Origin: a virus
Taxonomy: Duplodnaviria > Caudoviricetes
IMG/VR virus record: IMGVR_UViG_3300008262_000013
Length of the DNA stretch: 64,000 bases
Strand: one strand, 5' to 3'
Positions within the stretch are counted from its first letter, which is position 1. The number at the start of each line of letters is the position of its first letter. This document shows, in pieces, positions 32,930 through 40,825 of this stretch. The position numbers and the translations under genes were made by a program. The notes under the pieces were generated by a model that was given only the letters and a program-made list of their open reading frames with translations, ran no database searches and was not told the DNA's origin.

Positions 32930-32955
32930 AAAACCCACCGAAAGGTGGGTTTTTT
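32930..32955. terminator. bidirectional intrinsic terminator
   Basis: AAAACCCACC-GAAA-GGTGGGTTTTTT between convergent genes. Confidence 0.85.
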
Positions 32956-34807
32956 ATGCGATAATACTTCGAAACAAATTTGGTAAATAATCTTTAGATT
33001 CTGACTGATTTTCCATCACTATTACATTTTGTTGATTAGTATTATTGTTGATGAAAACTATTGGAGTATCTTCATTCATTGATCCAAAAGCCACATTAAA
33101 AGAAGAATTATCTATCATCTCACCCATATTACCCATGGATTGAGGACTAAAAACTGGAGGATTTTTTCTTATTTCTTCAGCCAAAGCTCTACCTTCAGAT
33201 TTCATTTTATCTGGAGAAATTTCTCCATGTCCAACTACATTTAAATCTCCATGACGTTTTCTTAAAAAAGCAACAAGAGCTTTTGCTGATTTGGTTTGAG
33301 CTTCAGTAAATGATTCACTATTTTTAGAAACTATTTCTACACCAATTGAGTTTTGATTCGTTACTCCCGATTTAGTTCCAGCGTGGTACATGATTGATTT
33401 ATCTGGAGCTATGTTATAAACAGTTCCATCTCTATCAATCACATATTGAACGCCGTGTTTATAACCTTTGCTTTTGCCTTCTTTGTCTGTTTGAAATCTT
33501 TCAAATTCATTTAAGGCACTTGTTAATCTATTATCACCAGTATGGTGCAGAACAACATTTTCAACTTTAGACATTTGACCATAAATTCCAAAATCACCAG
33601 TAACTTCTTTCATTTTGAAGCCTTCTACATTTACATCTTTTATAGTTCTAGGACCAGCTGGTTTTTTTACGAAACCGCCTATTGGTGTTCCTATTCCTAA
33701 TGAATCAAATAAAAGTTTCAAATAATTTTGAGATGCTTTGGTGTCTACTCCTACAGTTCCACTCCAAATTCTAGCTGCTTCATTTAAAGGTTTTGATTTA
33801 TACATTGGAGATTCCCATTTTTCTCTCTGAGCTTGTTTTCCAGCTTCAACAGTAGGAAATTGTGCAAAAGGAATTTTTTTACCATTTACATTTAAGAAAT
33901 GTTTTTCAGAAGGTTTAGCTCCCAATTTTTTTTGAGATTCATCTTTTTCATTATAAAGCATTGCTCCAGGATTATTAAGTTCAGTTGGTTTTGTTCCTTT
34001 TACACCAAATCCTTCAGCTTTTGCTTGAGCTTCCAAAAATTTCTTTTTTTGATCTTCAGTTAAAGTACCAAATGTTAACCTGGACATTTCTCTTTCGATA
34101 TCGGACGCATCAGTAAAAAAATCAATCGACATTACTTCATCAATCGATTTTTGTACTGATTTTAAGAAATCATCAATAGATTCTTTTAAGTCTATATTTC
34201 TTATTCTTTCAACCGCATTATATACACCTTTAATAGCTAAGGTAACCATACCTAAAAGACCTGCAAAAAATGCTGCATCCACTAAAACTCCAAAATTAAA
34301 AGATCCTGAATTTGGTTTAGTGATTTGTCTTTCCGGAGAATTGTTATTTCTTAAATTTGATAATTGTGATTCATACATTTCTTCTCTTTTTGCGGCAGCT
34401 TTAAAATACATATCAGCTTTTGTTGCTGCATCAAATTTTTCCAACTTTAAAAGTTTTACAATATTTTGTCTAATCACATTGAAGTCTCTGTGAATAGAAG
34501 GTAAAACACTTAGATTTTTAGCTGTAATTCTGGTGTCAGATTGTATATTTTCAAATATAGGTTTTATATCTGAAACATCCACTGAAGATTTTTCTATTGA
34601 TTTTCCGGATATCCTAGGATTTGATCCTGCTTTCGATTGGTAAGTTTTTAATCCCGGAAATAAAGCAGCTAATAAACCTCTTTGATTAATTAACTGTCGC
34701 GGATCAAATTTTTCTTTTAATCTTTCTTTGATACCTCCGGCCAAAGCTCCAGTAACGCTGCTACCCTGACTTCTTCGATATGATACTATTTCGGATAATC
34801 TAGACAT
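32954..34807 (-). CDS. tail/hub-associated protein with a C-terminal N-acetylmuramoyl-L-alanine amidase domain
   Basis: VVLHHT, YHAG, SIGVEI and GHGE (Amidase_2 pattern); the N-terminus is shared with the neighbouring gene. Confidence 0.7.
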   Translation of the reverse strand: MSRLSEIVSYRRSQGSSVTGALAGGIKERLKEKFDPRQLINQRGLLAALFPGLKTYQSKAGSNPRISGKSIEKSSVDVSDIKPIFENIQSDTRITAKNLSVLPSIHRDFNVIRQNIVKLLKLEKFDAATKADMYFKAAAKREEMYESQLSNLRNNNSPERQITKPNSGSFNFGVLVDAAFFAGLLGMVTLAIKGVYNAVERIRNIDLKESIDDFLKSVQKSIDEVMSIDFFTDASDIEREMSRLTFGTLTEDQKKKFLEAQAKAEGFGVKGTKPTELNNPGAMLYNEKDESQKKLGAKPSEKHFLNVNGKKIPFAQFPTVEAGKQAQREKWESPMYKSKPLNEAARIWSGTVGVDTKASQNYLKLLFDSLGIGTPIGGFVKKPAGPRTIKDVNVEGFKMKEVTGDFGIYGQMSKVENVVLHHTGDNRLTSALNEFERFQTDKEGKSKGYKHGVQYVIDRDGTVYNIAPDKSIMYHAGTKSGVTNQNSIGVEIVSKNSESFTEAQTKSAKALVAFLRKRHGDLNVVGHGEISPDKMKSEGRALAEEIRKNPPVFSPQSMGNMGEMIDNSSFNVAFGSMNEDTPIVFINNNTNQQNVIVMENQSESKDYLPNLFRSIIA

Positions 34808-34808
34808 T

Positions 34809-36773
34809 TTAATTCTTAAAAGGACCTAATGGGTTGGACATCATATCAGAAAAGTGTTTATCTATGAAATCATTATTCCAAGCAGAAGCTGCACCTCCGA
34901 GTCCTCCTACAAAAGGTGGAAAACTTTTTTTATCCGATTCTTGAGTTATAACGATTGGTTGTTTAAACACCACAGATTTTTTTCTATTATCAAATGTTTT
35001 ATCTATGATGTTTGTTGTATAAAAATCTTTCATTTGTGTTTCTAAACTTCCTGATAAACTTGTAAGACTGTTTCTTGCTGTGTTAGCAGTATTCTTTATA
35101 ATTGAACTAACGTCGGGAATATCTAAATCTTTAACAAATTTTTCACCCGCTTTTTCTACGTTACTTGTGATGCCTTTCATTATATCACTGTTCATAATTA
35201 CATCAGTTGCTCTTTCAGTATAAGCGTCAAGAAAACCTGGATCTAAATTTTCCATAACACTTCGCAAGTTGGAAAAGTAAATACGTTTATCGGCACTATT
35301 TGAATTAATTTGTTCTGCAACAAAATTTGCAGCAAAACTTAATAAATCACTTTTTATTATATTAAATTCTTCTCTGAGTTTTGTTTTAGCAGGACTTGCT
35401 GAATTTTGTAATGAGATTAGTTTTCTAAGTGCTGAGAAGTATTCTCGTTGTTTATCACCGTATTCGACAGCTTGTTCTTTTGTCAGTAAAAAAGGATGAG
35501 TATCATTAAGTCCTGGTATGTGTATTTTATACATATTTCTCATTTTACTATAGTATTCTTGTAAAACTCCAGGAGCAAACCTATCTTTTAATATATTTTT
35601 TTGTAACTCAGTTAATTCTCCATTTTTTCCTAATTGTACAGATTTTCCTTCTGAAGCTCCGATTATAGAATATTTTGCATTTGCATCAGCCGTCAAACCT
35701 ATTAATTTAGATCTTTCTAATTCTTCTCCTTCCATTTTTCTGCCACTTGTTGGCAATTCAGAATATTCTCCTTTTTTTAAATCCAAAGATTTTTCATTTA
35801 TTGTTTGTTGATACATATCTTTATCGGATATGTTTTTATCCTGTAACATATTTGCTTGTCGTCTTGCTTCTGGAAGTATTGATAGACCAAAAGCTCCAGC
35901 AAAAAATGCTAATAATCCCATTCCTATTCTTATTAATCCTTTTGGACTTAATACAAATCCTATAAGTCTACCTATTATTGATCTAATTAATATTTTAACT
36001 AAATCACTTGAGATGAATCCTACGATTGTTTTAAGTATGTTCTTAAGGTTTGGCATTAATCCAGCTAAACCGGACAAAGCTCCAAAAAAGGCCTTTCCTA
36101 AAGTTGTAAATATAGTGCCTACAATTCCGGCTAAAAATTTAAATGCTCCTAATATAGCTTTACCAAGACTAGCTAAAGCACTAACGACTGAGGATAATCC
36201 TTTCACTATTGAAGAAATTAATTTTTGAAAAAAACTTTTAGTGCCATCATCTTGTTTTTTCTTTTCATCTTCTTTTATTTTTTGGATTCTACTTTGTTTA
36301 TTTCTTTCTTTTTTTAGTTCCCGTTCATATTTGTCCTCACGTTCTTTTGCTTTTACAAAATACATATCGGCTTTTGTTCTAGCGTCACCGCCTTTTAACT
36401 TTACTAATTTTACTATATTTTGACGAATTACATTTACATCTCGGTGTAGTGCTGGTAAAACCATAGTATTTTTTGCTGTCATTTTTGTATTGAATGAAAT
36501 GGTTTCCAACATAGGTTTTATTTCATCAAAAGACGTAACTTGCATCGAAGATTGTGATATTTCTGATGCGGAAGTTTTTGCTTGATATGTTTTTAGTCCA
36601 GGAAATAAAGCAGTTAATAATCCTCTTTGATTAATTAATTGCCGAGGATCAAATTTTTCCTTAAGTCTTTCTTTGATACCACTAGCTAAAGCTCCAGTAA
36701 CGCTGCTACCCTGACTTCTTCGTGAAGCAACGATTTCTGTTAATCTTCCTCTTGATGGTTTTTTAGTTGCCAT
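34809..36773 (-). CDS. putative baseplate hub/tail length protein (gp29-like position)
   Basis: Helical and hydrophobic tape-measure-like stretch; follows gp26 and gp51. Confidence 0.5.
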   Translation of the reverse strand: MATKKPSRGRLTEIVASRRSQGSSVTGALASGIKERLKEKFDPRQLINQRGLLTALFPGLKTYQAKTSASEISQSSMQVTSFDEIKPMLETISFNTKMTAKNTMVLPALHRDVNVIRQNIVKLVKLKGGDARTKADMYFVKAKEREDKYERELKKERNKQSRIQKIKEDEKKKQDDGTKSFFQKLISSIVKGLSSVVSALASLGKAILGAFKFLAGIVGTIFTTLGKAFFGALSGLAGLMPNLKNILKTIVGFISSDLVKILIRSIIGRLIGFVLSPKGLIRIGMGLLAFFAGAFGLSILPEARRQANMLQDKNISDKDMYQQTINEKSLDLKKGEYSELPTSGRKMEGEELERSKLIGLTADANAKYSIIGASEGKSVQLGKNGELTELQKNILKDRFAPGVLQEYYSKMRNMYKIHIPGLNDTHPFLLTKEQAVEYGDKQREYFSALRKLISLQNSASPAKTKLREEFNIIKSDLLSFAANFVAEQINSNSADKRIYFSNLRSVMENLDPGFLDAYTERATDVIMNSDIMKGITSNVEKAGEKFVKDLDIPDVSSIIKNTANTARNSLTSLSGSLETQMKDFYTTNIIDKTFDNRKKSVVFKQPIVITQESDKKSFPPFVGGLGGAASAWNNDFIDKHFSDMMSNPLGPFKN

Positions 36774-36776
36774 ATT

Positions 36777-36914
36777 TTATCTCTTTTGATTTTGTGCTGC
36801 TTTTAATCTTTCAGATTCTTCTTCTAGATATCTCATTAACATATTCACATAGATATCTTTTTCCCAAGGAATCATATTCTCCAACTCTGTTAAACTATAT
36901 TTGTGATGTTGCAT
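36777..36914 (-). CDS. gp51: baseplate hub assembly protein gp51-like (ATG-initiated form; the frame is open to 36977)
   Basis: MQHHKYSLTELENMIPWEKDIYVNML; the in-frame upstream segment FGHDNLQNHYHTNFAL has no ATG. Confidence 0.8.
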   Translation of the reverse strand: MQHHKYSLTELENMIPWEKDIYVNMLMRYLEEESERLKAAQNQKR

Positions 36915-36964
36915 TAACGCAAAGTTGGTGTGATAGTGATTCTGCAAATTGTCATGACCAAATG

Positions 36965-37693
36965 TTAACCGAAAAAACTTTGTAAACCTTCTAATTCAAT
37001 GTTTTCGTGATAGCCGCATTTATTACATTCAAAATCTACTTTCTTTTTAAGTTTTGGCATAGTGTCGAAAAAATCTTTAATTTTTTCCAAATCTTTAGAT
37101 TGTAACGAATCTAAAAACTCTGTTAATTCTTCTTTAGTAGAATCTTTCGCATAATATACATTGTTTTCATCGTAAATAAAATCAATACAGTTTATAATTA
37201 AATCTAAAACAACATTAAAATCTTCTGTATTCGTGTTATCTTTTATCAAGTTCATTTTAGGATACTTCATCATGATACCTAATTTGTCTGTGATTTCTAT
37301 TTTATTTGAATGATTTTCTTCTTTAGTTGGTTCTATTTCCAAAACATTCAAATCTATTTCAACAGAACTGTTACATTTTTTAGGTTCTTCTTCTGTACCA
37401 ACATCATTATTACAACGGTACTTTAATTTGACTATTTCGCCAATTGAACGAGCTCTAATATTTAAAAATAAATGTTCAATATCAAATGTTGGCAAATCCT
37501 TTATATCAATATCACTTACTACACAATTATTTAAAACTTGCATAATTGTGTCTACAGAATATTTTGCATCATCAGATTCATAAGCCATAAGAAATAATTT
37601 TTCTTCTTTTACTGTAAAAGGTCTAAACTTAATAAACTCACCAGTAGAACTTAATTTTATTTCAAATAACGGAACATCAATTTTAGGTAACAT
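36965..37693 (-). CDS. gp26: baseplate hub subunit gp26
   Basis: MLPKID.P, FRPFTVKEEK, FL.IRARSIGE, C..C and EGLQSFF. Confidence 0.85.
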   Translation of the reverse strand: MLPKIDVPLFEIKLSSTGEFIKFRPFTVKEEKLFLMAYESDDAKYSVDTIMQVLNNCVVSDIDIKDLPTFDIEHLFLNIRARSIGEIVKLKYRCNNDVGTEEEPKKCNSSVEIDLNVLEIEPTKEENHSNKIEITDKLGIMMKYPKMNLIKDNTNTEDFNVVLDLIINCIDFIYDENNVYYAKDSTKEELTEFLDSLQSKDLEKIKDFFDTMPKLKKKVDFECNKCGYHENIELEGLQSFFG

Positions 37694-37704
37694 AGTAACT
37701 CCAT

Positions 37705-38454
37705 TTAAAATTTAAAGAATTTGTCAAATAACTTTGTACTTTTTGCTCCAAAGTAAGAAGCAGCTGCTTCACCCAGATCAGTATAACCTTCATAGATAGT
37801 TTGATATTTTTGATATGCGAATTGAACAGTTAATCTATGATAACCGTCATCACTCCAAGCTAACGGTTGTGCTGCGACACCTATTGGAAAAGCATCGATT
37901 AATTTTACAGAATAAATTTGTTTGATAAAGTCGTCGTACTGAAGAACTTGAATGTCCGTCATGTATCTAGTTTCTTCATCTTTGGGAAATCTTAAATTGT
38001 TGGTGTCAGATGGCATAATAGCATCGATCCAAAGATCAAAAAGTTTTCTTTCATAAAAATCGTTTGTACAGATAAAACTTAAACTCATATCATTATATTG
38101 TTTTTGATATGGTATTTTAAATGTCGGACCATAAATTTTTACATCGGCTGTTTGTAATGTTTTTCCTGGAAGTTCAGCGGTATCACACTGTAAAGAAAGA
38201 TATCTTGTGATAGAGGGATTCGAACTTCTCTTAAAAGGTACTCCTGTTGTTTCATAACTAGTTCTTGAACTTACCCAATCTGTAATGTCAGTAACAAGAG
38301 TATTTGGTAAGTTTAATAATCCTTCTAAAACTCCTGTGCTAACAAAATTACCTATGTAGTTAGGGATCGGTAAAATTACTTTAAATCTATTCGGTCTGGC
38401 TAATCCATCTTTGGCTCGAATATTTGATAAAAAGAGTGTTGGCGTAAAAGACAT
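37705..38454 (-). CDS. gp54: tail tube initiator gp54 / tube-family protein
   Basis: GLARPNRF.V, C..AELPG and AFP..V....L.W; synteny. Confidence 0.6.
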   Translation of the reverse strand: MSFTPTLFLSNIRAKDGLARPNRFKVILPIPNYIGNFVSTGVLEGLLNLPNTLVTDITDWVSSRTSYETTGVPFKRSSNPSITRYLSLQCDTAELPGKTLQTADVKIYGPTFKIPYQKQYNDMSLSFICTNDFYERKLFDLWIDAIMPSDTNNLRFPKDEETRYMTDIQVLQYDDFIKQIYSVKLIDAFPIGVAAQPLAWSDDGYHRLTVQFAYQKYQTIYEGYTDLGEAAASYFGAKSTKLFDKFFKF

Positions 38455-39051: not shown

Positions 39052-39486
39052 TTATACTAGACCGAGATCGTTTTCCGTAAGTATGAGAAACTTCCAACCA
39101 TGTTCTTTACAAAAGATATCTGCTGCTTTCCATTTTTCTTGATTGATTGCATAAGTCGCAGCTTCCTGTAAATACCGTTTGGTCTTTCTTTTTTGTTTAG
39201 GCATTTTTGTTTGGACTTCTGGTTTTACTTCTAGTACGTAAGTCATCACTGTTCCATCTTTTTTCTTCGTTTTTACGACAAAATCTGGAAAGTAACGGTG
39301 CATCTTTTTATCGATGGGATTGCGATATGGTATGAACAGTTCTTCTGATGCCCACCAGGTAACCATAGGATTTTCATCCAAATATTTCATGACGTAGAGT
39401 TCCCACGAAGAACGGTAGATGATATTTGTTGCATCTCCGTTATATTTCGTCGGATTTTTTGGAGTAAACTTTCCTGAATATGGCAT
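39052..39486 (-). CDS. gp4: head completion nuclease gp4
   Basis: YSGKF.PKNP.KY.GD...I.YRSSWE, RYFPDF and EVKP. Confidence 0.92.
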   Translation of the reverse strand: MPYSGKFTPKNPTKYNGDATNIIYRSSWELYVMKYLDENPMVTWWASEELFIPYRNPIDKKMHRYFPDFVVKTKKKDGTVMTYVLEVKPEVQTKMPKQKRKTKRYLQEAATYAINQEKWKAADIFCKEHGWKFLILTENDLGLV

Positions 39487-39514
39487 AAATATTATATATT
39501 CACAAAGGAATCAT

Positions 39515-40825
39515 ATGGCATTTTTCAACTTAACCGAAATCAAAATCAATAATACGAGTGATGGTGATACCCTTGGTTTAACAAAACAAATTTTGCGTGA
39601 TAGCAGATATATGAGTAATGTACTAAGATATCCTTTGGATATAGGTTCTTTAGATAAAGGACACTATATGGTAATCCATATTAATCAACAAGAAAAAACT
39701 AGATTTGATAGAACAAAGGACGAGGTTGGCTTGCCTAACTTTTATGGAAATCCTACTATTATACAAAATCAAAAGTATAATGGAACACCCAATCCTTTTT
39801 CGCAAACTGTATCTGGTCTTACACAAATAGTTGAAGATGTCAATGAATCTGGACCTACACAAATAAGTAAAGAAATGATTAAAAAAGGAGCTTCTTTTCT
39901 TTCTGATAAAGCCAATGCAAAAATAGAAAATATGAATGAAACGTTCCAAGAAGGTTTTGAGAGTGCTGCTGGTGGATTAAATTCGTTTGGTAAAGGATTG
40001 TCTGATTCTGCGAAAGAAATTTTTAATTTAGCTAATTCTGGAAAAGGTTTGAGAACTATAAAAAGAACCACGGATAGTATTGCTTTTTATATGCCAGATA
40101 CTTTAAATTTTACAAATAATCAACAATATTCTACAATAGAATTTGGATCTTCACCTCTAGCTTACTTGGCAGCTGCAACAGCCGGTTATAGTCAAATAAA
40201 AGGATCAGGAGAGAAAAAAATTGAAAGTGCCGTTAAAAACTTAACACCATTCATTTTAAACAATTTTTTACGAAAAACTCTCGGTGGTGCAGGATCAGGA
40301 GTTTTTGCCGCAGGATTTGGAGCAGTTGTAAATCCTCAACTAGAAATGATATATTCGTCTCCTTCATTTAGAGAGTTCAGATTTGATTTTATGTTATATC
40401 CAAGAAGTTCTAAAGAAGCGGTTGAAGTTCAAAAAATATTACAAAGACTTAGATTTCATCAAGCACCAGAAGTTTTAAAAGAAGGAATTGGAGCCTTAGG
40501 TGGATTCTTCTTAGTGCCACCATCCGAATTTGATATAAAATTTTACTACAACGGTTCTATAAATCCTAATATTCCTCAAATTTCAACTTGTGTTTTGACA
40601 TCTATAGATACAGATTATGCACCAAATGGATGGTCTGCATATGAATCTCCTGACAATTTTGGACAACCTGAGATTGGAAAAACTGGTATGCCTGTTGGTA
40701 TTAGATTATCTTTAAATTTCCAAGAAACGGAAATTCTTACAAAAGATTCTTTTGTTGAAGTTGCGGGAAGAGATAGGGACGATGTGGCGATGTGGGAAGT
40801 TTCTACCACCAAAAGAAGATTTTAA
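39515..40825 (+). CDS. gp48: baseplate tail tube cap gp48
   Basis: NP.LE..Y..P.FR.F.F.F...P.S..E and CVLTSI..DYAP; start at the ATG at 39515 with an AAGGA SD. Confidence 0.8.
   Translation: MAFFNLTEIKINNTSDGDTLGLTKQILRDSRYMSNVLRYPLDIGSLDKGHYMVIHINQQEKTRFDRTKDEVGLPNFYGNPTIIQNQKYNGTPNPFSQTVSGLTQIVEDVNESGPTQISKEMIKKGASFLSDKANAKIENMNETFQEGFESAAGGLNSFGKGLSDSAKEIFNLANSGKGLRTIKRTTDSIAFYMPDTLNFTNNQQYSTIEFGSSPLAYLAAATAGYSQIKGSGEKKIESAVKNLTPFILNNFLRKTLGGAGSGVFAAGFGAVVNPQLEMIYSSPSFREFRFDFMLYPRSSKEAVEVQKILQRLRFHQAPEVLKEGIGALGGFFLVPPSEFDIKFYYNGSINPNIPQISTCVLTSIDTDYAPNGWSAYESPDNFGQPEIGKTGMPVGIRLSLNFQETEILTKDSFVEVAGRDRDDVAMWEVSTTKRRF

What the first reader, a model, noticed from the sequence alone, without database searches (positions are those of the whole stretch)
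36777..37000. -1 slippery site fusing gp26 to gp51, like tail-chaperone G/GT frameshifts
Seen in sequence (minus strand): gp26 ends CAA AGT TTT TTC GGT TAA, which contains the heptamer T TTT TTC (36977-36971). Slipping -1 gives TTT TTT CGG TTA ACA TTT GGT CAT GAC AAT TTG...ATG CAA CAT CAC AAA TAT, open to the gp51 stop at 36777. The segment HDNLQNHYHTNFAL looks like part of the gp51 family but lies upstream of the only ATG (36914) and has no start or SD of its own. The pair sits just before a tape-measure-like gene. Established: many long-tailed phages make a short and a long tail chaperone by -1 frameshift immediately upstream of the tape measure gene (lambda G/GT). Inference: here gp26 and gp51 may be one frameshifted unit.
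Basis: partly seen in the sequence, partly recalled or inferred. Interest (0 to 1): 0.7.

Follow-up and report, generated by a model that had tools for sequence, protein, structure and literature searches.

The report
Frameshift makes gp51 in T4-like phage
In this freshwater T4-like phage and its relatives (cyanophages included), the small "gp51" gene has no start of its own and is most likely made by ribosomes slipping back one base at a conserved TTTTTTC at the end of gene 26, which gives the T4 group the lambda G/GT-style tail-chaperone frameshift that a 2016 review says T4 lacks.

Summary
On the minus strand, gp26 (37693-36965, Pfam T4_baseplate) ends AGT TTT TTC GGT TAA. The heptamer T_TTT_TTC lies at 36977-36971, and the -1 frame stays open to the "gp51" stop at 36777.

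In the window alone the heptamer is not above chance. Its conservation is what counts:
- All 83 close relatives keep xxT TTT TTY NNN stop in the same phase.
- Seven further lineages that I picked for divergent gp26 ends keep T_TTT_TTR or T_TTT_TTT plus stop.
- Codon-position variability switches from the 0 frame to the -1 frame directly after the heptamer.
- About 62 of 72 unique junctions have no ATG, GTG or TTG for the next 18 conserved codons.

T4-type gp51 (250 aa) is T4_baseplate plus Gp51_C in one chain. It is collinear with gp26 plus the -1 peptide, with the join at the slip site. T4-type RB51 has two T4_baseplate genes. Four searched genomes with the adjacent arrangement have one.

The locus lies between a tube-like gene and a tape-measure-like gene. 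The gp26 N-domain resembles solved tail assembly chaperones (Z 7.3-7.7).

I read this as a G/GT-type -1 frameshift, with confidence about 0.85. I found no prior report. No protein evidence exists yet.

The parts
37705..38454 (-). Tube-like gene directly upstream (gp54-type baseplate tube initiator or tail tube fold, 249 aa)
   Evidence: phrog_45 'tail tube' 1.4e-37 and Pfam Phage_TTP_2 1.1e-5. The same neighbour is annotated as tail tube, tail tube monomer or gp54 in S-CREM1, phiM7, AsFcp_4 and RL38J1.
36965..37693 (-). gp26 ORF in the 0 frame, 242 aa. This is the short product (the 'G' equivalent). It has an SD GGAG at 37702-37699.
   Evidence: PF12322 T4_baseplate 8.2e-62 and phrog_150 2.2e-68. 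AF2 model has pLDDT 95. The N-terminal 1-93 resembles HK97 tail assembly chaperone 2OB9 (Z 7.5), YqbN 3KLU (Z 7.3) and 3FGX (Z 7.7). A C-terminal Cys4 zinc-ribbon-like motif is present.
36987..36991 (-). SD-like GAAGG ending 9 nt upstream of the heptamer. Possible frameshift stimulator (inference).
   Evidence: GA[AG]GG or RRGG is present in all 30 aligned relatives (alignment A1). It also encodes the conserved Glu-Gly, so RNA-level selection cannot be separated from protein-level selection.
36971..36977 (-). Slippery heptamer T_TTT_TTC in X_XXY_YYZ phase of the gp26 frame
   Evidence: Entropy is 0 bits at the six T positions, 0.2 at Z and 0 at the following G across 67 unique relatives. Upstream wobble positions average 1.14 bits, minimum 0.3. 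Variants are T_TTT_TTA/G and T_TTT_TTT.
36965..36967 (-). 0-frame stop TAA, one codon after the heptamer
   Evidence: The heptamer-to-stop distance is identical in 83 of 83 relatives. In three other lineages the stop follows the heptamer directly.
36777..36977 (-). -1 frame segment: FF plus 64 residues (Gp51_C domain) plus stop. Predicted fusion = gp26 residues 1-241 followed by RLTFGHDNLQ...NQKR, about 305 aa.
   Evidence: phrog_634 5.8e-28. hhalign against the T4 gp51 family gives probability 95.1%, E 3e-8, peptide columns 2-50 against gp51 200-247. Codon periodicity switches to this frame directly after the heptamer.
36777..36947 (-). The small ORF as gene callers see it (TTG 36947, first ATG 36914). 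Probably not an independent gene.
   Evidence: No SD upstream. In relatives it is annotated with inconsistent starts (ATG close to the stop, TTG, or a 31-aa remnant) or not called at all.
34809..36773 (-). Tape-measure-like gene directly downstream (654 aa)
   Evidence: Only a weak match to phrog_305 'tail length tape measure protein' (1.5e-3). Supported by position, size and a conserved N-terminal motif in relatives.
32954..34807 (-). Second tape-measure-like paralogue (617 aa) with the same N-terminus and an Amidase_2 domain
   Evidence: Amidase_2 3.7e-22. 71% identity to the first paralogue over the first 120 residues.

Best explanation
Gene 26 and the so-called gene 51 of this phage are one recoded unit. 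Most ribosomes translate gp26 (242 aa) and stop at TAA 36967-36965. A minority slip back one base while tRNA-Phe molecules occupy TTT and TTC of T_TTT_TTC (36977-36971). They then read CGG TTA ACA... and add a 64-residue helical Gp51_C domain, giving a protein of about 305 aa. That long form is the orthologue of T4 gp51, and the short form is the orthologue of T4 gp26. T4 and other Tevenvirinae make the same pair from two paralogous genes without frameshifting. By position (tube-like gene, then chaperone pair, then tape-measure-like gene), by the short/long product logic and by the chaperone-like fold of the N-domain, the pair most likely works like lambda gpG/gpGT. That is, an abundant short chaperone and a rare long one, in a ratio fixed by the slip frequency, would act on the tape-measure and hub proteins during initiation of tail assembly and would not stay in the virion. 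Shown here: the sequence anatomy, its conservation, the frame switch of coding constraint, the collinearity with T4 gp51, and the one-copy versus two-copy pattern. Inferred: that the slip occurs, its efficiency, the stimulators (upstream GAAGG, nearby stop codon) and the chaperone mechanism.
For: (1) All 83 relatives (gp26 identity 37-90%) have xxT TTT TTY NNN stop with the same spacing and an open -1 frame of 62-71 codons wherever the contig runs far enough. (2) Seven further lineages that I picked for divergent gp26 ends keep the six T's. Four change Phe to Leu but use TTA or TTG, never CTN, including contigs of 49-52% GC. Three have T_TTT_TTT followed directly by the stop. All seven have the -1 frame open into Gp51_C. 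(3) The three 0-frame wobble positions inside the heptamer have entropy 0, 0 and 0.2 bits. The 20 upstream wobble positions average 1.14 bits. (4) The most variable codon position switches from the 0-frame third base (1.14 vs 0.75 and 0.37 bits) to the -1-frame third base (1.02 vs 0.58 and 0.34 bits) in the stretch between the heptamer and the first ATG. (5) About 62 of 72 unique junctions have no ATG, GTG or TTG in the -1 frame before codon 20-21, yet codons 2-20 are conserved as protein: R[LIV]xFG[HY][DE]NLxNxYQTNFAL. The codon after FF is a variable G, V, E or A in the 0 frame but a conserved Arg plus aliphatic residue in the -1 frame. (6) T4-type gp51 matches PF12322 over residues 1-201 (3.5e-54) and phrog_634 (2.9e-24, best stretch 147-246). 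All 97 full-length homologues of about 250 aa carry PF12322 plus PF28602 Gp51_C. Profile alignments are collinear: gp26 columns 16-247 against gp51 6-203 (probability 98.1%), and -1 peptide columns 2-50 against gp51 200-247 (probability 95.1%). (7) PF12322 copy number is 1 in a complete 214-kb close relative and in the P-SSM2, S-CREM1 and AsFcp_4 records, and 2 in RB51. (8) The tube-like, gp26, small ORF, tape-measure-like synteny is conserved. (9) The gp26 N-domain matches HK97 tail assembly chaperone, YqbN and 3FGX as the top three of 48,161 chains (Z 7.3-7.7; the next unrelated hit is 4.4). (10) The T4 literature lists both gp26 and gp51 as hub assembly chaperones and says gp51 is required but absent from the particle (PMC3004832).
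Against: No protein, ribosome-profiling or reporter data exist for any member. No conserved RNA structure lies downstream: the window fold has z = +0.72 and RNAalifold on 30 sequences finds nothing. Any stimulation must therefore come from weaker elements, and efficiency may be low. The FF dipeptide is itself a conserved protein motif (T4 gp26 ends ..EFFELL, written TTC TTT), which explains part of the T-richness. Three distant phages lack the heptamer and have an ATG overlapping the stop, and five of the 72 junctions have an ATG at -1-frame codons 3-5 (one also a GTG at codon 3). The C-terminal piece can therefore evidently also work, or be made, as a separate small protein. The chaperone-fold match has a borderline Z and did not reappear among the top 50 hits for the T4 gp51 model.
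Confidence: 0.85

Rival explanations
1. The Gp51_C piece is made as a separate small protein. Ribosomes terminating at the gp26 stop would re-initiate nearby (translational coupling), possibly on a near-cognate codon such as ATA, ATT or TTG, and no fusion would form.
For: Three distant phages (VAP7, phiDP23.1 and Vibrio D524) have TAATG stop-start overlaps and no heptamer. Mendera, RSP15, RL38J1 and phiM7 have an ATG over or just after the stop together with the heptamer. Five of the 72 junctions have an ATG at codons 3-5, one of them also a GTG at codon 3. A stop-start overlap by one base also gives the -1 phase.
Against: About 62 of 72 junctions have no canonical start before codon 20, while codons 2-20 show -1-frame coding constraint. 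The Arg codon shares its C with the heptamer and is conserved. The heptamer wobble bases are invariant, and TTA or TTG is kept even in contigs of about 50% GC. Coupling does not need any of this. No SD is present. T4 gp51 shows that the covalent fusion is the functional form in at least one lineage.
Confidence: 0.08
2. The fusion is made at the RNA level. RNA polymerase would stutter on the T6 run and add one U (or drop two), so that a fraction of mRNAs encode gp26-Gp51_C in one frame.
For: The site is a homopolymer run. Transcriptional slippage is used for comparable two-product genes in other systems (reviewed in PMC5009743).
Against: The run is only 6-7 T and has not lengthened in any of about 95 lineages. 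What is conserved is exactly six T's in X_XXY_YYZ phase with a free seventh base (C, T, A or G), which is the rule for tandem tRNA slippage. From general knowledge, efficient polymerase slippage usually needs runs of about 9 or more. No RNA data could be obtained.
Confidence: 0.04
3. The small ORF starts at its first ATG (36914) or at TTG (36947), as most annotations assume, and the conserved sequence upstream is conserved for another reason.
For: Gene callers and GenBank records annotate such starts.
Against: Annotated starts are inconsistent between relatives (ATG at codon 5, TTG, or a 31-aa remnant) and sometimes absent. One lineage has no Met at the usual position at all, reading FALCQFHKW. 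Three-base periodicity in the -1 frame begins at the heptamer. T4 gp51 aligns from the residue at the slip site.
Confidence: 0.02

Closest known systems
Lambda gpG/gpGT tail assembly chaperones and the conserved tail-gene frameshift (Levin 1993; Xu, Hendrix and Duda 2004, as cited in PMC2147016 and PMC5009743)
   Same: A short ORF followed by a -1-frame ORF without its own start. The slip site lies a few codons before the end of the first ORF. The location is between a tube-type gene and the tape-measure-type gene. There is no obligatory downstream RNA structure. The logic is an abundant short product and a rare long product. The gp26 N-domain has a fold like the solved HK97 chaperone (Z 7.5).
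   Different: The heptamer is T_TTT_TTC rather than G_GGA_AAG. The first ORF is 242 aa with an extra beta-rich, zinc-ribbon-bearing domain, against about 140 aa for gpG. There is no sequence match to any Pfam tail-assembly-chaperone family. In the T4 literature the genetically defined role is baseplate hub assembly. Binding to the tape measure and tube proteins is not shown.
Bacteriophage T4 gp26 (208 aa) and gp51 (249 aa), 'hub assembly chaperones' (PMC3004832)
   Same: Same protein family. The window gp26 and both T4 proteins carry PF12322. The window's -1 peptide is the Gp51_C domain of T4 gp51, joined at the same point.
   Different: T4 encodes the long and short forms as two diverged paralogous genes on opposite strands (51 | 26-25) and needs no recoding. 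Here one gene plus a frameshift must supply both, and there is one PF12322 copy per genome.
[quoted passage not shown] 2007, PMC2147016)
   Same: A precedent for replacing the G/GT frameshift by two genes that share a homologous domain. That is how I read T4 gp26 and gp51.
   Different: Unrelated sequences. In 0305phi8-36 the shared domain is C-terminal in one protein and N-terminal in the other.
E. coli dnaX -1 frameshift (A_AAA_AAG with an upstream SD-like element and a downstream hairpin)
   Same: Tandem-slippage heptamer in a bacterial system, with a purine-rich GG-containing element 9-10 nt upstream.
   Different: No downstream stem-loop. The shifted frame here extends the protein by 64 residues, whereas in dnaX it truncates it.

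Membership tests
G/GT-type tail assembly chaperone frameshift | Two overlapping ORFs placed between the tube gene and the tape measure gene | tested here: met
   Order is tube-like 38454-37705, gp26 37693-36965, small ORF 36947-36777, tape-measure-like 36773-34809. The same order is found in relatives. The tape-measure assignment itself rests on weak evidence (phrog_305 at 1.5e-3).
G/GT-type tail assembly chaperone frameshift | X_XXY_YYZ slip site near the 3' end of ORF1, with ORF2 in the -1 frame and lacking its own start and RBS | tested here: met
   T_TTT_TTC lies 2 codons before the stop. About 62 of 72 unique junctions have no canonical start before codon 20. No SD is present.
G/GT-type tail assembly chaperone frameshift | Slip site and phase conserved among homologues beyond what coding requires | tested here: met
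   83 of 83 close relatives, 7 of 7 further lineages and 5 distant phages keep the heptamer. Wobble entropy is 0, 0 and 0.2 bits against a mean of 1.14 bits. Three distant phages lack it.
G/GT-type tail assembly chaperone frameshift | Trans-frame fusion protein actually produced at a low fixed ratio | not testable with these tools
   Needs mass spectrometry, a reporter assay or ribosome profiling.
G/GT-type tail assembly chaperone frameshift | Products needed for tail assembly but absent from the virion | not testable with these tools
   Known only by homology: T4 gp51 is required for assembly and absent from the particle, and T4 gp26 is listed as a chaperone (PMC3004832).
G/GT-type tail assembly chaperone frameshift | Tail-assembly-chaperone fold or sequence family | tested here: inconclusive
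   gp26 residues 1-93 against 3FGX (Z 7.7), HK97 chaperone 2OB9 (Z 7.5) and YqbN 3KLU (Z 7.3), each with 83-85 residues aligned at rmsd 3.5-3.7 A. These are the top three of 48,161 chains. Z is borderline, Foldseek E-values exceed 1, no Pfam chaperone family matches, and the hits were not recovered with the T4 gp51 model.
G/GT-type tail assembly chaperone frameshift | Short part binds the tape measure and the extension binds the tube protein | not testable with these tools
   Requires binding experiments.
T4 gp26/gp51 family (PF12322 T4_baseplate with or without PF28602 Gp51_C) | T4_baseplate domain | tested here: met
   8.2e-62 over residues 10-241.
T4 gp26/gp51 family (PF12322 T4_baseplate with or without PF28602 Gp51_C) | Gp51_C domain homologous to the C-terminus of T4 gp51 | tested here: met
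   phrog_634 at 5.8e-28. BLASTP to RB51 gp51 residues 200-246 at 1e-4. hhalign probability 95.1%, E 3e-8. PF28602 is recorded on the equivalent ORFs of relatives.
T4 gp26/gp51 family (PF12322 T4_baseplate with or without PF28602 Gp51_C) | Both domains in one polypeptide, as in T4 gp51 | not testable with these tools
   The DNA allows it only through a -1 shift. Collinearity without a gap at the junction is shown, but the product is not.
dnaX-type stimulated -1 frameshift | Downstream stem-loop or pseudoknot | tested here: not met
   Window fold -11.6 kcal/mol, z +0.72. RNAalifold on 30 sequences gives 2 pairs and no covariation.
dnaX-type stimulated -1 frameshift | SD-like element about 10 nt upstream of the heptamer | tested here: inconclusive
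   GAAGG at 36991-36987, with a 9-nt spacer. RRGG is present in all 30 aligned sequences, but it coincides with the conserved Glu-Gly codons.

The most novel reading that the evidence does not exclude
gp26 and gp51 are the T4-group version of the universal G/GT tail assembly chaperone pair. In this reading the -1 frameshift at the end of gene 26 is the ancestral and still most widespread way of making the pair across T4-like phages of cyanobacteria, freshwater and marine bacteria, rhizobia, Aeromonas and others. T4 itself is a derived two-gene form in which the frameshift product became fixed as a separate gene, gene 51. That would remove the long-standing 'except T4' exception. It would also give a mechanism for gp51's 'catalytic' role in hub assembly: a low-abundance long chaperone that recruits the first tube-like or hub subunits onto the tape measure.
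Probability: 0.5. Interest if true: 0.8.

Novelty: new variant of a known kind. Interest (0 to 1): 0.72.

Why it matters
Programmed -1 frameshifting in tail chaperone genes is one of the most conserved recoding events in viruses. [quoted passage not shown] This locus indicates that the T4 group uses it too, in a different protein family, and that T4's gp26 and gp51 are the two-gene equivalent.

There are three practical consequences:
- Hundreds of cyanophage and other T4-like genomes annotate 'gp51' as an independent ORF of 31-57 aa with arbitrary starts, or miss it altogether. These should be annotated as a ribosomal-slippage join with gene 26.
- The 50-year-old question of what the 'hub assembly catalyst' gp51 does becomes testable by analogy with gpGT.
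- The family offers natural variants for studying how recoding sites are gained or lost: a frameshift form, a form where stop and start codons overlap, and a two-gene form.

Tried and rejected
1. Complex prediction of gp26, the -1 peptide and the first 120 residues of the tape-measure-like protein gave no verdict (score 0.02 against a mark of 0.32). It is evidence neither way.

2. Downstream RNA stimulator: none found.

3. In-frame fused ORFs from metagenomes (P0001, P0003, P0004, P0007, P0008). I first took these as natural fusions. P0001 and P0003 show internal frameshift scars. P0007 and P0004 come from '_pilon' contigs, a name I took to mean polished long-read assemblies, and have T-runs of 7 and 4 plus other indels. 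They cannot be told from homopolymer errors, so I did not use them.

4. Tree of PF12322 domains. Tevenvirinae gp51 N-domains, Tevenvirinae gp26 and the single-gene forms make three groups on an unrooted tree. Whether the frameshift or the two-gene form came first is not resolved.

5. The fold search with the T4 gp51 model returned only generic helical hits on residues 195-250. Foldseek against the PDB with gp26 gave nothing at E <= 1e-3. BFVD returned only other 'baseplate hub' proteins. No Pfam chaperone family matched any of the 122 gp26 homologues.

6. No solved structure of gp26 or gp51 exists by sequence search.

7. RNA evidence: no RNA holder was listed for this stretch. The raw-read run that I laid held no reads.

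8. No whole genome is held for the window. Copy number was therefore tested on a complete close relative and on four other records instead.

9. Nine literature searches found no paper describing a gp26/gp51 frameshift. Subscription-only papers, including Xu et al. 2004 and Taylor et al. 2016, could not be read.
Full report
**What is in the window**

On the minus strand the order is as follows:
- gp4 (head completion) and gp2 (DNA end protector).
- A tube-like protein, 38454-37705 (phrog_45, Phage_TTP_2).
- gp26, 37693-36965 (242 aa; Pfam PF12322 T4_baseplate 8.2e-62; SD GGAG 5 nt before its ATG).
- A small ORF, 36947-36777.
- A 654-aa tape-measure-like protein, 36773-34809 (weak phrog_305 hit).
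- A 617-aa paralogue with the same N-terminus and an amidase domain.

gp26 ends AGT TTT TTC GGT TAA. The heptamer T_TTT_TTC is at 36977-36971 and the stop at 36967-36965. The small ORF is in the -1 frame. Read from the heptamer, that frame is open for 66 codons (FFRLTFGHDNLQNHYHTNFALMQHHKYSL...) and matches phrog_634 'baseplate hub assembly catalyst' at 5.8e-28.

**Chance**

Taken alone the site means little. The window is 33% GC. 17 of 49 FF dipeptides in its long ORFs are written T TTT TTY, and long ORFs hold 213 in-frame X_XXY_YYZ heptamers. The case rests on comparison with relatives.

**Conservation of the site**

I fetched 80 loci from IMG/VR (gp26 identity 53-90%) and read three cyanophage records (P-SSM2, S-CREM1, ACG-2014a; 37-42%).
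- All 83 have xxT TTT TTY NNN stop at the same distance from the stop.
- All have a -1 frame open for 62-71 codons wherever the contig is long enough.
- Across 67 unique sequences the six T's and the following G have zero entropy. The three 0-frame wobble positions inside the heptamer score 0, 0 and 0.2 bits. The 20 wobble positions just upstream average 1.14 bits, with a minimum of 0.3.

An HMMER search of 1.84 billion representatives found 4,221 family members. Of the best 150, 108 end FF plus one residue, 15 end FF, and about 17 end FL plus one residue. I looked up DNA for seven of these divergent endings.
- The four 'FL' forms read GAT TTT TTG or GAT TTT TTA, never CTN, including contigs of 49% and 52% GC.
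- The three 'FF-stop' forms read xxT TTT TTT followed directly by the stop.
- In all seven the -1 frame runs into a Gp51_C homologue.

What is conserved is therefore six T's in X_XXY_YYZ phase with a free seventh base. That is the requirement for tandem tRNA slippage. It is not a particular amino-acid sequence.

**The -1 frame is translated from the slip site**

The most variable codon position is the 0-frame third base upstream of the heptamer (1.14 vs 0.75 and 0.37 bits). Immediately after the heptamer it becomes the -1-frame third base (1.02 vs 0.58 and 0.34 bits). This holds in the stretch that precedes the first ATG.
- The 0-frame codon after FF encodes a variable G, V, E or A. The overlapping -1 codons encode a conserved Arg, whose C is the last base of the heptamer, plus an aliphatic residue.
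- Of 72 unique junctions, five have an ATG at -1 codons 3-5 (one also a GTG at codon 3), and a few have a TTG or GTG at codons 10-16.
- The remaining 62 or so have no canonical start before codon 20-21, although codons 2-20 are conserved as R[LIV]xFG[HY][DE]NLxNxYQTNFAL.
- One lineage lacks even the usual Met, reading FALCQFHKW.
- Annotators and gene callers disagree about this ORF. They give an ATG two codons after the stop in P-SSM2, a TTG in S-CREM1 and a 31-aa remnant in ACG-2014a. They call nothing in AsFcp_4 and in three metagenomic contigs.

**The fusion exists as a normal protein in T4**

In T4-type phages (RB51, a Mosigvirus, Acinetobacter phages 133 and AB2I2) gene 26 is followed by gene 25, and gene 51 lies on the opposite strand.
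- RB51 gp51 (250 aa) matches PF12322 over residues 1-201 (3.5e-54) and phrog_634 (best stretch 147-246).
- BLASTP aligns its residues 200-246 with the window's -1 peptide from that peptide's second residue: FKLLVNPDE... against FRLTFGHDN....
- All 97 homologues of about 250 aa carry PF12322 plus PF28602, which is named Gp51_C.
- Profile-profile alignment places gp26 columns 16-247 on gp51 6-203 (probability 98.1%, E 1.3e-13). It places the -1 peptides' columns 2-50 on gp51 200-247 (probability 95.1%, E 3e-8).

gp26 plus the -1 peptide is therefore collinear with gp51, and the join falls at the slip site. A whole-record search found two PF12322 genes in RB51. It found one in a complete 214-kb close relative of this phage (direct terminal repeats, CheckV 100%) and one in each of the P-SSM2, S-CREM1 and AsFcp_4 records. 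In the single-gene phages a gp51-type protein can arise only by the -1 shift.

**Distribution of the three states**

- Heptamer without a nearby start: this freshwater clade, Kyanoviridae cyanophages and Aeromonas phage AsFcp_4 (Straboviridae).
- Heptamer with an ATG over or just after the stop: phiM7, RSP15, Mendera, and RL38J1 (T_TTT_TTG).
- No heptamer, with an ATG overlapping the stop (TAATG): two Ackermannviridae (phiDP23.1, VAP7) and Vibrio phage D524.
- Two full-length genes: Tevenvirinae.

In every adjacent arrangement the phase is -1. A tree of the PF12322 domains does not resolve which state is ancestral.

**Mechanistic details**

No downstream RNA structure is present. The window fold has z = +0.72, and RNAalifold on 30 sequences finds two invariant pairs. 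Two possible weak stimulators exist, both inferred:
- A GAAGG ending 9 nt before the heptamer. This spacing is close to that of the dnaX SD-like element, which I recall from general knowledge. It cannot be separated from the conserved Glu-Gly codons.
- The stop codon, which lies one codon or zero codons downstream.

Lambda G/GT also works at a few percent without a strong stimulator (PMC5009743 gives a 30:1 product ratio).

**Comparison with tail assembly chaperones**

The locus has the canonical synteny: tube-type gene, short ORF with -1 extension, tape-measure-type gene.
- AlphaFold2 models are confident: gp26 has pLDDT 95 and T4-type gp51 has pLDDT 93.5, with four C-terminal helices forming Gp51_C.
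- An exhaustive structural scan of 48,161 PDB chains with the gp26 model puts four small proteins on top, all aligned to residues 1-93. They are 3FGX (Z 7.7), the HK97 tail assembly chaperone 2OB9 (Z 7.5), YqbN 3KLU (Z 7.3) and 5IR0 (Z 5.0). The next hit scores 4.4. I recall YqbN as an XkdN-type prophage chaperone.
- These Z values are borderline. Foldseek E-values exceed 1. No Pfam chaperone family matches. The hits did not recur with the gp51 model.

I therefore treat homology to classical chaperones as open, and similarity of working principle as likely. The T4 literature already lists gp26 and gp51 as hub assembly chaperones, and describes gp51 as essential but absent from the particle (PMC3004832).

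**Robustness of the sequence**

The stretch occurs nearly word-for-word in 20 runs from 13 freshwater or lake metagenome studies. Contigs from three runs cover the junction without any indel. These include a strain variant with 17 substitutions and 0 gaps, none of them within the heptamer.

**Novelty**

Nine full-text searches found no description of a gp26/gp51 frameshift. [quoted passage not shown] Hardies et al. [quoted passage not shown] This is the precedent for how I read T4's gp26 and gp51. Pfam's domain names (T4_baseplate, Gp51_C) show that curators know the two-domain build of gp51. I found nothing that links it to recoding. Subscription-only literature could not be checked.

**Verdict**

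This is most likely (about 0.85) a conserved programmed -1 ribosomal frameshift that makes the gp51 orthologue from the end of gene 26. It is a G/GT-style system in a different protein family. T4 itself is a two-gene variant, and a few lineages use an overlapping start codon instead. The missing piece is direct detection of the trans-frame protein.

Noticed in passing
window 32954-36773 (minus strand): Two tandem tape-measure-like genes (654 and 617 aa) share 71% identity over their first 120 residues and then diverge. The second carries an Amidase_2 domain (3.7e-22). The N-terminal motifs (RLxEI...EKxDxR...KxY and ITAKNSMxLPxMARDMNxMRQNI) are conserved in the gene downstream of the small ORF in dozens of relatives, which suggests a shared partner-binding end.
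   Followed up: partly
L090 (Dickeya phage phiDP23.1), L087 (Vibrio phage VAP7), L091 (Vibrio phage D524): These phages have no slippery heptamer at the end of gp26. Instead an ATG overlaps the stop (TAATG) and opens a small Gp51_C-like ORF of about 50-60 aa. This looks like a third way of expressing the same module, as a separate coupled gene.
   Followed up: partly
L089 3217-3384 (Aeromonas phage AsFcp_4); L099, L100, L104 (metagenomic contigs): The Gp51_C-coding stretch is left unannotated because it has no start codon. In GenBank cyanophage records 'gp51' is annotated with inconsistent starts (31 aa in ACG-2014a, a TTG start in S-CREM1).
   Followed up: yes
P0002 (213 aa, JGI, from a 33.8-kb contig): A called ORF that runs from just upstream of the FF motif through Gp51_C and straight on into the N-terminus of the downstream tape-measure-like protein. 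It may be a read-through, a sequencing error, or a real fusion of the extension to the tape measure.
   Followed up: no
window 39052-39486 (minus) and 39419-40825 (plus): The gp4-type head completion protein matches the Pfam TnsA-like endonuclease N-terminal domain (1.5e-22). The mechanical ORF for the divergent gp48-type gene overlaps it by 68 nt, so the true start of that gene is probably a later Met.
   Followed up: no
gp26, window 36965-37693; alignment A2: Four nearly invariant cysteines (C57, C107, C223, C226 in window numbering) and weak zinc-ribbon Pfam hits suggest a structural zinc site in the C-terminal half of the gp26 family. The T4 gp51 family also keeps invariant cysteines (C85, C88, C185, C186).
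   Followed up: no
window 36600-37800: The stretch is present nearly identically in 20 public runs from 13 freshwater or lake metagenome studies (2017-2025). This phage lineage therefore appears in many independent freshwater datasets.
   Followed up: partly
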